This document shows positions 1 to 15,154 of a stretch of DNA of 64,000 nt, in pieces; positions within the stretch are counted from its first letter, which is position 1; the number at the start of each line of letters is the position of its first letter. Made by a program: the position numbers and the translations under genes. A model generated the notes under the pieces. The model had not been told where the DNA came from. It worked only from the letters and a program-made list of their open reading frames with translations, and did no database searches. The stretch is taken from the NCBI GenBank assembly GCA_004431415.1, contig QPMI01000241.1:1-64000 (forward strand), given 5' to 3'. This DNA is from Cyanophora paradoxa CCMP329 (Eukaryota > Plantae > Glaucophyta).

Positions 1-1316
1 ATAAAGCTATGCATGAGAGCGCGAACATTAATCGATTACCTTATCTGAAGGCATGTAGAGGGTGAGGAAGAAGAGGAGGAATTTGTTAAATCAACATAAC
101 CAGACTGGGCAATTTTCGAATCGCCTTTTCTCCATCAAGGCAGAAAGGCAATCCTGAAAGGACATAGCGATCAGCAACCTTATCCATGTTAGAGCATTTG
201 AAGGCATCAGCAATTAGCTCAGCACCTTTGAGTAGGGAAATTGGCTCAGTGGCAAAAAGTCGCTGACCATTTATTTCAGTTGTAATGTGTCTTTTGGAGT
301 TGGCATAGGTCTTAAGAACACTGTGGGAGCCATTGGATTTTCAACAGTTGCATTATCACGAACTGAAACAAGCAGAGCATATACAAGACCCTGAGATTTG
401 AGAGAGGTTAATTCGATTGGGTTGGGCATTGCCCTTAGCAGGGAAAGCAATAGCATCAACAAATCCAATATCAAGGGAGGAATAGCCATGCCAGTAGTCT
501 TAACTTTTTCAATTACAGTAGCGAAAAGCTCATCAGAAACATTAATAGCATGCATAAAGGCGAGGAGAAGTAATTGAATTCAGGAGTTGTTGCCCAAAGA
601 GTAAAGTCTGTGATGTTTTGACCAACATTTGCCAGAACAGTTTCAGCAGGGGCAGTTCCAAGACATCATCTTTTGAATAATCTACATCAGCTGCTGCAAC
701 AGTAAGACCACGACCACCATAGGATGTTTCAACATAACCTTTCCAGCATCCTTAAACCAAACAGTAACAACCATTTCACCAGATAAGCACCAAAGGGGAA
801 GGTAGTGATTTAGCCAAGGCACTGGAATTTCAAACGAAAAATGAGCCACCAAGTCGGTTGGTTCCATGAGCAGGGATGCCATGAACCATGCCCATTGATC
901 GTTTCTTTTTAGCTAGTTGATCCTCCGAATAATAGACAGGGGGAAATGAGCAAGGAAATCAGATGGAATATGGTAGGTGTAAGATCCATAGGTAATTTCA
1001 AGTCGCTGAACTAAAGCACCAACTGGGCGAGTGTATCCATTGCGAACTAGGTCAGTATCACCAGCAAAAGTGATAGCTGGAAGGTCAAAAGCAAGTTCGA
1101 GTTTTCCACAGAAATTGTAGCGAGGTAGCTTGAAGGAAATGCGATTTCCTACATTATTTGTGAAAGTATTGCTGGATTCACAACAACTAGAACTGGCTTA
1201 GACTTGGATTCGAGACCAAGCATAAGGGAGTTATCCAGGAAAAAGGCTTTCGCCTCCTCTGGGGTTGTTAGGGCTTCTTTCAGCGAAAGTCTTTGAAGAG
1301 TGGAAGTGATATCCAT
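1..1316 (-). CDS. Major capsid protein (double jelly-roll), frameshifted, 3' end runs off the window
   Basis: Manual translation from ATG at 1316: MDITSTLQRL...; after frameshifts GNRISFKLPRYNFCGKLELAFDLPAIT, YTRPVGALVQRLEITYGS and FSFEIPVPWLNHYLPLWCLSGEMVVTVWFK. These follow the order and pattern of NCLDV/PLV MCP N-terminal jelly-roll motifs. Confidence 0.8.
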
Positions 1317-1370
1317 TATATTCTCCTTTTATTATACTGCAACATAAAAAATCTACCAATGATCCTTAAT

Positions 1371-2368
1371 TTATGCGAAGTTTGTAATAACTGGATAGGA
1401 AGGGTGAAGCTGCGACATTCTCATCTTATAGTATTCATAAACTGGGTCCCCAGCTGGCTCATCACCATAGCGAATTTCAAAGGTAAGATGAACAGGTTGA
1501 CCCTCAAATCAATTGGTTCATTAACAGCATTCACAATATCAACCGAGAAAGTGGATAATCCAACCTTCTTATTATAGTATTTGTAAAGTGGATGAGCCTC
1601 TGTCGAATTGTAAACTACATGCTCACCATAATCTTTGTCAGGGACCACTATTTTATGGAAGTAACCAGTCAGAGACCATCCCCACATTGCACCAGATCAC
1701 CCAGCTCCTTTACTCTCACAAACAAAACACTGTCCCTGGTCTTTCAGGCTCAAATGAAGATATAATACGTTTACTCGAGTCCAGTAAAGATTCCATCAGT
1801 GAGAGCATCATAGAACCTGTGATTGATTGGGGAATTACCATATCTTCCAGGATCAAGACCAAGCAGTCTAGCTGAACTTAACAGCTTTTGGATTGTTTTC
1901 AGTTTGGGTTTACAGCAAGTGAGAAAGCCAGGTAAAACTTTTTTTCGGTGGAATATAATTCGTTTCAGTGACTCATCCCATTTGCAGCGAACAGATGGTT
2001 AGGATTTCTGCATTAAATTTTCATTTATAACATTCACCAGCTGTTGGTGGTTTGGATGGGGGTTTCGCGATTTACAATGAATTGTTTTCATTGTTCAAAA
2101 TCAGCAGCTGGGCGAGTTGTTGGAATTCCTGTAGTTCCAGCTCCCGCAAGCTCTTCAGAATAATAAATACTAAAAGTGTTGTCAAACTGTTATATCTCCT
2201 GCTTTGTTTCACCACTCCCATAGGGATGCTGTTATAAAATTCGGCTGAGACCAGTCTCACAGCCCTCACATTCTCATAAGTACTGGGGAGTCTAGCCACA
2301 AAGCTTGATGTGGGACCATCACCAGAGATTGTATTAAATGAGCTAACCTCGATGTAATCCACAGGCAT
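1371..2368 (-). CDS. Minor capsid (penton) protein 1, frameshifted
   Basis: N-terminus YIEVSS...SSFVARLPSTYENVRAVRLVSAEFYNS and C-terminus LSTFSVDIVNAVNEPIDL.GQPVHLTFEI match the single-jelly-roll penton pattern of PLV/NCLDV. Stop (TAA) at 1371-1373 in the reconstructed frame. Confidence 0.75.
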
Positions 2369-2396
2369 TCTTCTTTATCTATATTTATATATTAAA

Positions 2397-3328
2397 ATGA
2401 ACCGGCTCGTTAATATTGATAGCAGGGATAGAAGCCAAGGACAAAATGAAAACTCTTACAGGGTCACCCTCACAACTCCAGTAGAGAGACCAAGGAATGG
2501 CAAGGGTTCTATATGCAGAGATTCCAAACAGCATCTATAACAGTGTGGGAACTGATCATCTAACAGTTTCAGTTTAATTACCAAGATGGTTCATATAACA
2601 AGTGATCACACAACAAGTGTATCCCCTTCCCAGTGGCTACATCAATCAGGGTCATTTTGGGGAACACACCCTTATAATTATGGGCTGAACTATTCAAGCT
2701 TCCAAACCATTGCAGGCAAACAGTAGCTTTTTGAGTTCAAGATATTCTATAACCCAACTACCTATAAAGTGGAGTTTTACAGTAACCATGAGTTTCGTTT
2801 TATTGCAAGCAACCAGAGAATAGGGAAGCTTTTGGGTGTAAGTTCTACTGAATACACCAATGGGTATTATAGCACTCCTCCTGTTGTGGATCACCCTATC
2901 GACCTGAGAACCTGTTAAAGTATGATGGCAAACCTATTACACCTGATCACCCAGCATGGGGAATCACCTTCTCAGGACCCAGACTCTCCTCAAAGCCCTT
3001 GCAGTATTATTTCACCAGTAATAAGATGTCTGATATGAATGCTGAGCAGTATCTGTACATGCATATTAAAGAGCTTGCCCCCTTTGCCAGCAGACACAAT
3101 ATAATTCCGAAATCGCAACCACAAAACCAGGGAGCTATCCTAAGATTGCAATTGAGTAAGGATATAGGTGGCTATGTTTACCATAGTGGTGAGCATGCAG
3201 AATTTATTCAAATCAATGACAGAAACCTGGTGATAAGGGAACTCACAGTTGAGTTTAAAGATTACTTTGGTGAACTGATTGATATGAATGGAATCGATAA
3301 TTCGTTTCAGTTGGAGTTTATCGAATAA
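2397..3328 (+). CDS. Minor capsid (penton) protein 2, frameshifted
   Basis: MNRLVNIDSRDRSQGQNENSYRVTL...VLYAEIPNSIYN at the start (IDSRDR penton motif) and IRELTVEFKDYFGELIDMNGIDNSFQLEFIE* at the end. Confidence 0.85.
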
Positions 3329-13302: not shown

Positions 13303-13701
13303 ATGGAGACTCAATACAGAGGCTTTCATGTTATGCTTGATTACAAAGCTAAATCAGCTATTGCAACAGGACATGAGCATGTTAGCTTCCTAGGTAATTG
13401 GATTATGGGAACCCTTGAACAAGCTATATTGAGACAAGGTATTAGGATTGTTCATAAACACTGTGAAATATTTGATGGCAAAGTATCACCTCCTGGTTTT
13501 GCATTGGTTCTGCTATTAGATGAAAGCCATTGCACAGCTCATTGTTATTCCAATGAAGGCATGTTAGCAATTGATATATTCAGTTGTGGTAAAGAAGCTC
13601 AGCATAAAACACAAGCAGTTGCAGATGAGATCGATAAAACAATGAATTTCCTCACATTTGAGAAGACTGAGAGACATAAACATGATAGATTCCCGTTTTG
13701 A
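13303..13701 (+). CDS. speD: Prokaryotic-type pyruvoyl S-adenosylmethionine decarboxylase proenzyme (SpeD/SpeH family)
   Basis: 132 aa; GFHVMLD...PPGFALVLLLDESHCTAHCYSNEGMLAIDIFSCG contains the ESH self-cleavage site and the DIFSCG motif. Confidence 0.88.
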   Translation: METQYRGFHVMLDYKAKSAIATGHEHVSFLGNWIMGTLEQAILRQGIRIVHKHCEIFDGKVSPPGFALVLLLDESHCTAHCYSNEGMLAIDIFSCGKEAQHKTQAVADEIDKTMNFLTFEKTERHKHDRFPF

Positions 13702-13976
13702 TGAGTTTCTATTATGGTGATCAGGGTGATTTACCTTTTTTATTACAATGGCAATCGTTAAAAAAGGATATAATATATCCTTTCCTACAATAGCTTTCTA
13801 CAATGATTTTCTTTCTACAGTAGCTTTTGTTACAATAGAATTCTACTGTATGATGTAGCCGAAATATGAATGCACCCTACATTAAGCAATGTCAAGTATT
13901 TCGAATACTATTCGATTTCCTTACAATAACACTCAGCATCTCCCCTAGATTCCCCCTATTATATTATATTTATATT

Positions 13977-14693
13977 TAAGTGGACTCAAGGTTGACTCAT
14001 ATTAATCGTAAAAGTAGTAATAGTATATGGATTTTGTTACGAATTCAATGCAAGGGTTGACTAAGTGGGTTGAGTTGACTCAAATTTCACAGGAAATATT
14101 TGGGACCTAAAGTTTTCTAAAAAGGATTTGAAAAAATGTGTCAACTCCCCCCACTTAGTCAACCCTGACCATAAACAGTAAGGATTTGAGCTAACAAGTA
14201 TCACAAAGTGAACATTTTGAGTCCACTTAGAAGATCCACCTAACAATTTAGAGTCAAATTTACTTGGGAATTCGATTTGTATGAAAAAGTGAGTCCACCC
14301 TGACCATATTCAATAAGCATTCCTCTTAATCCCCTTGTTTATATTTACATTGATTAATATTTAATACTAAGTGGACTCATGGTTGATTCATATTAATCGT
14401 AAAAGGAGTAAATGTATATAAAAATGTGACCATTTCAATGCTAAGGTTGACTAAGTGGGTTGAGTTGACTCAAATTTCAGAGGAAATTTTGAGATCCAAA
14501 GAATATTCTATAAAAGATTTTGAAAAATGTGTCAACTCCCCCACTTAGTCAACCCTGACCATATACAGTAAGCATAAGAACTTAAATGTATCACAAAGTG
14601 AACATTATGAGTCCACTTAGAAGATCCACTTTTGAAATATAAGTTGATTTTGCTTGAAATTTCAAAGTTGATCTAAAAGTGAGTCCACCCTGA
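13977..14693. repeat. Two diverged ~325-bp direct repeats (period ~390 bp) with internal inverted repeats, viral subterminal region
   Basis: Copies at 13977-14303 and 14368-14693. Copy 1 has AGGGTTGACTAAGTGGG (14053-14069) and its reverse complement (14150-14166); copy 2 has a near-identical pair. Confidence 0.85.
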
Positions 14694-15081
14694 TTGATTA
14701 TGGTAACAAAGTTGACTAAGTTGACTAAGTTGAGTCATCTTAAGAAATTCAAGGAGACTAAGAGTTCAAAATGTTTATGAAAAGTGAGTCAACTTAGACC
14801 ACTTATGGTAACAAAGTTAAATATTTAATTGATTTAATAGGAAAAGAACATGATTTAATCGAATTTATTGATATAATTCCGATTAGATTCATTTAGGATT
14901 CAATTAAGATTAATCGAAGTTATAGATATAATTCCGATTAACTACAATTAAGATACAATATCGATTAATCGAGTTTATCGATATAAAATCGATTAAATTA
15001 ATTGAAAATGCATTTAAAAATATGAAAATTCATGTGAAAATTCAAATAAATTAATCGATTTTATTGATATAACATCGAATC

Positions 15082-15154
15082 ACACATATGAATATTCATA
15101 TTTTAATCCTGAGGCGGAACGCCGAGGGATTAAAATATGAATATTCATATGTGT
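15082..15154. repeat. Terminal hairpin of the virus (28-bp perfect arms, each with an internal 16-bp palindrome)
   Basis: ACACATATGAATATTCATATTTTAATCC (15082-15109) is the exact reverse complement of 15127-15154. The spacer contains GGCG-GAA-CGCC. Confidence 0.92.

What the first reader, a model, noticed from the sequence alone, without database searches (positions are those of the whole stretch)
1..15154. Endogenous capsid-encoding virus with an unusual gene set, integrated into a GC-rich eukaryote
Seen: MCP, two pentons, lipase-lectin, giant fibre, AdoMetDC, iterated terminus and hairpin end, all intronless and AT-rich next to very GC-rich spliced host DNA. Known: DJR MCP plus IDSRDR-type penton define PLV/virophage/NCLDV relatives. 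Inference: an NCLDV-like MCP, phage-style fibre, metabolic gene and hairpin terminus together do not fit a standard Polinton and may mark an undescribed endogenous virus group.
Basis: partly seen in the sequence, partly recalled or inferred. Interest (0 to 1): 0.85.

Follow-up and report, generated by a model that had tools for sequence, protein, structure and literature searches.

The report
Hairpin-ended Cyanophora Polinton-like provirus
This is the right-hand part of one copy of a many-copy small DNA virus family already catalogued in the genome of the alga Cyanophora paradoxa; it sits inside a host exon and ends in a DNA hairpin that likely primes its replication, so it is real but mostly known.

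Summary
The element is real: 39% GC against 72% host, ending at 15154 in a 73-nt hairpin. It is not a new discovery. The best full-length match of the capsid protein (MCP) among 1.84 billion representatives is a Cyanophora paradoxa protein. By eye it is 163/194 identical over four blocks to a C. paradoxa endogenous-virus MCP printed by Bellas 2023, who counted 366 such MCP genes. Bulzu 2025 tabulated 156 glaucophyte elements with the same 'unusual' genes: AdoMetDC 66, lipase 89, S74 fibre 37, plus rve integrase 85, pPolB 49, protease 0. Terminal palindromes with a hairpin-priming model were reported in 2026 for Halocafeteria elements. Short-read contigs show many divergent copies and five other flanks at this end, and one contig crosses this junction (29 nt on the viral side). 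The end interrupts a host exon. What remains open: the MCP clusters are unnamed, only 2 of 156 hit the standard PLV capsid model, embedding neighbours are NCLDV-type capsids, and I found no text placing the lineage or describing its ends. Both pentons rest on motifs only.

The parts
1..1316 (-). Major capsid protein, frameshifted in the window, C-terminus beyond the window start
   Evidence: Best full-length hit P0003 = Cyanophora paradoxa EukProt protein, 61% over the query piece; Atlas neighbours Capsid_N/Capsid_NCLDV; by eye 163/194 identical to Bellas 2023 Table S2 gene_64235
1421..2368 (-). Putative second penton, in pieces
   Evidence: Only weak collinear profile matches to the first penton, E 0.11 and 0.2; inferred
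2397..3328 (+). Probable penton (minor capsid protein), in pieces
   Evidence: IDSRDR motif at 2415 (meaning recalled); intact homologue P0001 aligns end to end; no Pfam/PHROG/PDB hit
3318..4900 (-). Patatin-like phospholipase fused to an F5/8 discoidin domain, in pieces (start approximate)
   Evidence: PF01734 and PF00754; GTSTG at 4744, DGA at 4327
4912..10924 (+). Fibre region, probably one frameshifted ORF of about 2000 aa or two paralogous fibres; internal duplication, 36-bp x9 PTR-like repeats, C-terminal S74 chaperone (start approximate)
10928..11233 (+). 101-aa ORF, unknown
   Evidence: no significant family hit
11273..12118 (+). 281-aa ORF of unknown function, paralogue of the next gene
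   Evidence: 34% identical over 253 aa, E 1e-40; no Pfam/PHROG hit; fold failed, pLDDT 34
12142..12978 (+). 278-aa ORF of unknown function, paralogue of the previous gene
13001..13273 (+). 90-aa piece resembling part of HNH-endonuclease proteins, probably truncated
   Evidence: phrog_559 and phrog_681, E about 1e-8
13303..13701 (+). Class 1b-type S-adenosylmethionine decarboxylase homologue, intact
   Evidence: PF02675 E 3.7e-11; PDB 1vr7/1tlu, ES-H aligned
13702..15154 (.). Non-coding terminal region, likely a terminal inverted repeat (partner end not in the window)
   Evidence: No ORF of 70 aa or more; GC 0.19-0.38 up to 15100
13966..14693 (.). 390-bp imperfect duplication with internal inverted repeats
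   Evidence: About 81-82% identical
14855..15105 (.). 55-bp iterated repeats
15082..15154 (+). Terminal 73-nt hairpin: 29-bp stem, tandem GA/GA mismatch, 4-bp stem, GAA loop; last base is the element end
   Evidence: -30.6 kcal/mol, z -13.3; high-depth contigs stop at 15154 and other flanks join at 15154-15158 or the mirror positions
15155..15270 (+). 3' remnant of a host exon interrupted by the virus, followed by a GT donor
   Evidence: 17/38 identical to exon 2 of the host 844-bp repeat unit, same G|GT end; 0 of 2000 shuffles

Best explanation
The stretch is the capsid, attachment and terminal part of one integrated copy of the Polinton-like virus family of Cyanophora paradoxa, inserted into a host exon, likely by an rve integrase encoded beyond the window, and its terminal hairpin likely serves as a fold-back primer for replication. 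Shown: gene identities, family match, many divergent copies, a fixed end with several flanks, the interrupted exon. Inferred from known PLVs: MCP and penton(s) build a small icosahedral virion; the S74-chaperoned fibre binds the cell; the patatin-discoidin protein helps cross a membrane; the AdoMetDC homologue adjusts polyamine supply (substrate untested, such homologues can be arginine or ornithine decarboxylases). Inferred and weaker (about 0.5): after excision the 3' end folds back flush on itself and primes synthesis by a helicase-primase or polymerase module. Most frameshifts are likely assembly or polishing artefacts, some may be decay of this copy. CpG loss suggests long exposure to host methylation, so copies are probably silent most of the time.
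For: Of 59 hits at E<=0.001 among 1.84 billion representatives, the two single-stretch MCP-length hits are P0003 (C. paradoxa, EukProt) and P0005 (Logan, 40% to P0003); the others are mostly multi-stretch matches in long proteins, and the two scanned are repeat proteins. By eye 43/48, 61/80, 24/26 and 35/40 identical to a printed C. paradoxa EVE MCP. Published gene content of 156 glaucophyte elements: AdoMetDC 66, lipase 89, S74 37, HNH_3 40, A32 ATPase 139, rve 85, tyrosine recombinase 0, protease 0. 2250-6322 contigs per run lie on the stretch in 4 of 4 runs, 598-1423 of them only 90-95% alike. Five other flanks join at the same end. One 230-nt contig with no difference runs 15126-15355. The host side is a cut exon. 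9 of the 12 indel rows shown (of 99) are letters the window lacks, seen in all 4 runs, near frame breaks; Bellas 2023 describes this artefact. Hairpin-priming precedent. CpG o/e 0.33 against 1.27 in the host.
Against: The crossing contig comes from one run and has 29 nt on the viral side, under the tool's 31-nt rule. Integrase, ATPase, replication genes, the other end and the target-site duplication lie outside the window, so they are borrowed from the published family table, where rve is in only 85 of 156 and pPolB in 49. Three of the five other flanks are read from contigs laid on the inner hairpin arm, which is an inference. Both strands fold almost equally well (-30.6 and -29.5 kcal/mol), so energy gives no strand bias for priming. 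Pooled contigs cannot separate assembly error from decay of this copy. Neither penton has a profile or structure hit. Host identity rests on the viral family match and sequence style, not on a host gene.
Confidence: 0.85

Rival explanations
1. The family is not an ordinary PLV but its own lineage on the Nucleocytoviricota side (near Zoravirus, Zephyrvirus or mriyaviruses) that gained an rve integrase. This is compatible with the family match and concerns placement only.
For: Atlas neighbours of P0003 are viral 394-433-aa clusters with Capsid_N/Capsid_NCLDV on 12-18% of members, score 0.98. Published HHpred hits of the family's MCPs are iridovirus, ascovirus and algal giant-virus capsids. Only 2 of 156 elements hit the PLV MCP model and 15 hit an NCLDV penton model. 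RVE-bearing NCLDV-related small viruses are described.
Against: Atlas recognition 1773 and 1826 is below the 2300 mark, so the scores are weak evidence. Most PLV capsids resemble NCLDV capsids structurally (passage). The family's ATPase hits the PLV model in 107 of 156 and the NCLDV model in 1. No Pfam or PDB capsid hit for P0003/P0005.
Confidence: 0.35
2. The junction is a chimera between a free or contaminating linear virus with a hairpin end and host DNA.
For: The only crossing contig is 2 nt short of the bridging rule; the flank is a long tandem array, which is hard to assemble.
Against: The crossing contig matches with 0 differences; five other flanks join at the same end; at least 14 runs from many studies of one organism hold half or more of the words; the family is reported at 366 genomic places.
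Confidence: 0.05
3. The hairpin is not a primer but an integrase recognition or cleavage structure, or a by-product of end repair, and replication is protein-primed.
For: 49 of 156 family members carry pPolB; the Halocafeteria authors offer accidental annealing as an alternative.
Against: The palindrome is present in high-depth contigs in 4 of 4 runs, so it is shared by many copies; in Halocafeteria such palindromes go with non-pPolB replication genes.
Confidence: 0.35

Closest known systems
Cyanophora paradoxa endogenous viral elements (Bellas 2023, PMC10120064, MCP clusters 21 and 29; Bulzu 2025, PMC12220804, Table S6)
   Same: MCP about 84% identical by eye over four blocks to a printed member; AdoMetDC, lipase with discoidin, S74 fibre with PTR repeats, HNH all tabulated or named for the family.
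   Different: The terminal hairpin, iterated terminus, possible second penton, paralogous 280-aa pair and exon insertion are not in the parts I read. Which of the two clusters, and whether this locus is among the 156, was not determined.
Halocafeteria seosinensis palindrome-ended virophages and PLV subtype 4 (bioRxiv 10.64898/2026.07.28.741278)
   Same: Palindrome at the very end of the element, rve integration, proposed hairpin priming.
   Different: Different host and capsid type; 52-nt palindrome in subtype 5 virophages against a 73-nt imperfect one with GA/GA mismatch and GAA loop here.
Zoravirus (VC102), VC218, Zephyrvirus and mriyaviruses (bioRxiv 10.64898/2026.06.19.733378)
   Same: Small size class with NCLDV-leaning capsid; RVE in about 60% of Zora and VC218; lipase in some Zephyr members.
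   Different: Mriya48, HUH and VLTF genes could not be tested; mriyaviruses lack integrases; that paper's main text does not mention Cyanophora.
Maverick-Polintons (Polintoviricetes)
   Same: Integrated, capsid-encoding, rve in about half of the family.
   Different: No maturation protease in 156 of 156 and pPolB in only 49; MCP outside the Mavpol clusters.

Membership tests
C. paradoxa endogenous PLV-type family | MCP in the family's sequence cluster | tested here: met
   by-eye comparison with Table S2
C. paradoxa endogenous PLV-type family | Typical accessory genes (lipase, AdoMetDC, S74 fibre) | tested here: met
   against Table S6
Polinton-like viruses (broad sense) | Double jelly-roll MCP | tested here: met
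   Indirect: Atlas and published HHpred 94-98% for family members; no own structure
Polinton-like viruses (broad sense) | Penton | tested here: inconclusive
   Motif and intact homologue only; no Pfam/PDB hit, fold failed at pLDDT 33
Polinton-like viruses (broad sense) | A32 packaging ATPase | not testable with these tools
   Not in the window (no Walker A in 1-15154); no genome held; 139 of 156 in the published family
Polinton-like viruses (broad sense) | Terminal inverted repeats and target-site duplication | not testable with these tools
   Only one end lies in the window
Polinton-like viruses (broad sense) | Integrated, with GC shift and several insertion sites | tested here: met
   the direct bridge of this junction is 29 nt, under the 31-nt rule
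Maverick-Polintons (Polintoviricetes) | pPolB, rve integrase and cysteine protease together | not testable with these tools
   Left part missing; published family counts 49, 85 and 0 of 156 argue against
Virophages (Virophaviricetes) | Virophage-type MCP | tested here: not met
   Atlas neighbours are Capsid_N/NCLDV-type; family clusters 21/29 lie outside the virophage clusters, MCP-VIR 0 of 156
Mriyaviricetes and related Zora/Zephyr groups | NCLDV-related MCP and ATPase by phylogeny | tested here: inconclusive
   Embedding similarity only, below the recognition mark; no reference sequences found for a tree
Mriyaviricetes and related Zora/Zephyr groups | HUH endonuclease, Mriya48, VLTF2/3 | not testable with these tools
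   No such family hit among 28 window pieces in Pfam; left part missing

The most novel reading that the evidence does not exclude
The Cyanophora elements are an unnamed virus lineage of their own, the glaucophyte branch of the small Nucleocytoviricota relatives: protease-less, rve-integrating, two-penton viruses that replicate from a conserved fold-back 3' hairpin, are still inserting into host genes, and could be induced from a standard laboratory alga.
Probability: 0.3. Interest if true: 0.62.

Novelty: already known. Interest (0 to 1): 0.33.

Why it matters
As it stands it is one more copy of a catalogued family. The useful residue: the family makes up an estimated 7% of the C. paradoxa genome yet appears only in supplementary tables, unnamed and apparently unplaced. 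It offers scores of copies with mixed replication genes in a cultivable host, which makes the 2026 hairpin-priming hypothesis directly testable: do palindromic ends track non-pPolB copies in a second, unrelated host and capsid lineage? It also shows such a virus breaking an exon of a host repeat-protein gene.

Tried and rejected
No genome is held for the window, so the left part could not be read. Word-index protein searches with two MCP pieces found nothing; the exhaustive search did. IMG/VR scans with an MCP piece, AdoMetDC, the penton homologue, the 278-aa ORF and the MCP alignment gave no relatives in 5 of 5; these need close matches, so free relatives are not excluded. The three metagenome loci L001-L003 are chance matches, as is L004 from the hairpin-loop pattern. 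PDB sequence searches with MCP, penton and patatin gave nothing useful; phage records none. Six intact ORFs are not in the 15-billion collection as exact sequences. No RNA holder was listed; this says nothing on expression. Runs X2, X3 and X7 have no contig on 15160-15320; a hole proves nothing and is unexplained. An MCP tree was not possible without reference sequences. The Atlas could not be run on the 278-aa ORF or the penton. Three look-ups in earlier scan findings were empty. A giant-virus fragment was rejected: compact PLV-type gene set and a shared discrete end.
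Full report
Observation. The first 15,154 bases are 38.7% GC against 72.5% for the rest and are packed with intronless reading frames. Pfam, PHROG and PDB searches confirm a patatin fused to an F5/8 discoidin, a long fibre ending in a Peptidase_S74 chaperone, a piece resembling HNH-endonuclease proteins and a class 1b-type AdoMetDC. After the last gene come 1.45 kb without ORFs, holding a 390-bp duplication, 55-bp repeats and a 73-nt terminal hairpin. The capsid gene starts at 1316 on the minus strand and leaves the window at base 1. 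The penton calls are weaker: the first rests on a recalled motif and an intact homologue, the second on collinear but non-significant matches to the first. Two paralogous 280-aa ORFs remain unexplained.

Identity. A 94-aa MCP piece scored against 1.84 billion representatives gave 59 hits. Two are single-stretch, MCP-length proteins: P0003, a Cyanophora paradoxa protein, and P0005 from Logan; the others are mostly multi-stretch matches in long proteins, and the two I scanned are repeat proteins. Bellas 2023 (PMC10120064; I saw passages, section 9, five Cyanophora rows of Table S2 cut at about 400 characters, and the head and some rows of Table S4) prints a 465-aa C. paradoxa MCP that matches the window by eye at 43/48, 61/80, 24/26 and 35/40 positions, and counts 366 MCP genes, about 7% of the genome. 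They fall in clusters 21 (272) and 29 (94), marked 'new', with no group name. Bulzu 2025 (PMC12220804; abstract, sections 6, 7, 34, passages of 13, Table S6) lists 156 glaucophyte elements: A32 ATPase 139, penton 97, lipase 89, rve 85, AdoMetDC 66, pPolB 49, D5-type primase-helicase 40, HNH 40, S74 37, SF1 helicase 34, tyrosine recombinase 0, protease 0, and only 2 recognised by the PLV capsid model. Its text calls S74 fibres ubiquitous in PLVs and names discoidin, alone or fused to patatin, in glaucophyte PLVs. AdoMetDC is also counted in cryptophyte PLVs (10/177, 17/57, 45/706). Starrett 2021 (one passage) had noted pPolB-integrase virus proteins in C. paradoxa contigs. The host is thus most likely C. 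paradoxa; no host gene was tested.

Integration. At least 14 of 24 listed runs of one organism hold half or more of the words of 8400-16000. In 4 of 4 runs laid, thousands of contigs cover the element, many only 90-95% alike, so there are many divergent copies. At the end, contigs of depth 2,000-8,000 stop at 15154, against 33 and 22 for unique flank contigs, a rough hint of tens of copies. Five other flanks join there: two directly, three seen on the identical inner arm of the hairpin, which I read as reversed junctions. One contig of run X1 crosses this junction without a difference but has 29 nt on the viral side, under the 31-nt rule. The host side reads as the 3' half of an exon homologous to the second exon of an 844-bp, two-exon repeat gene, ending at the same GT donor (17/38 identical, 0 of 2000 shuffles), so the virus likely landed inside a coding exon. 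Of 99 indel rows 12 are shown; 9 are letters missing in the window, in all four runs, near frame breaks. That fits the polishing artefact described by Bellas 2023, but pooled contigs cannot exclude decay of this copy.

Mechanism. The window holds the virion module and one end. By analogy with described PLVs, the fibre binds the cell, the lipase-lectin helps cross a membrane, and MCP and penton(s) package a linear genome through an A32 ATPase encoded in the missing part. Integration is most likely by rve, the only integrase counted for the family. The hairpin ends flush with the last base, so a released 3' end would pair on its own template and could prime synthesis. This model was proposed for palindrome-ended Halocafeteria virophages and PLVs, where it goes with non-pPolB replication genes (section 7 read). 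It is untested there and here, and both strands fold about equally. The AdoMetDC homologue keeps the self-cleavage site; viral homologues can instead act on arginine or ornithine (PMC9992855 passages). CpG is depleted to 177 of 538 expected, also across codon boundaries, which suggests host methylation and silencing.

Placement. Embedding neighbours are divergent NCLDV-type capsid clusters, but recognition is below the tool's mark, and the family's ATPase mostly hits a PLV model. Bellas and Sommaruga 2026 (parts 1-3 of 5 read) define several NCLDV-related small-virus groups, some with rve, and do not mention Cyanophora in the main text; nor does bioRxiv 10.64898/2026.10.13.758929 (term search only). 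Supplements of these preprints are closed and could contain the placement. Paper searches found no text naming this lineage or describing its ends; subscription papers are not covered.

Verdict. A real integrated virus of an already catalogued family with an already tabulated gene set. The open points are its unnamed, unplaced capsid lineage and the conserved hairpin end. Interest 0.33.

Noticed in passing
window 15332-~50200: Host gene built of at least 30 copies of an 844-bp unit with two exons and two introns (Ser/Thr/Ala-rich), followed by a 42-bp x59 SP/TETP exon at 50444-52923; looks like a giant surface glycoprotein gene.
   Followed up: partly
window ~19262-27958: An 8.7-kb fold-back DNA transposon-like insert in the host array: long inverted arms (98% over 1.9 kb), a 348-bp tandem core at 22837-24087, TAC...GTA ends and an apparent 7-bp target duplication. 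The same gene is thus hit by two mobile elements.
   Followed up: partly
window 1-13700: CpG observed/expected 0.33, with TpG 1.22 and CpA 1.37, against 1.27 in host DNA; the last kilobase of the terminus is not depleted.
   Followed up: partly
window 6900-10600 and 14211-14474: Contigs on most of the fibre and on the second 390-bp copy have about a fifth of the depth of contigs on conserved genes and the end, a weak hint (contig depth cannot rank parts) that fibre alleles vary among copies.
   Followed up: no
window 15119-15154: In 4 of 4 runs one contig carries only the outer hairpin arm joined to unlike upstream sequence, perhaps another element type sharing this end.
   Followed up: no
window 11273-12978: Two tandem paralogues of about 280 aa with no family, database or fold assignment, placed right after the fibre; possibly virion proteins.
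   Followed up: partly
window 1316-1345, 2368-2397, 10910-10928: Short AT-rich intergenic stretches; TATAATAAA just upstream of the MCP and the 101-aa ORF, and a 28-bp divergent gap between the two penton candidates.
   Followed up: no
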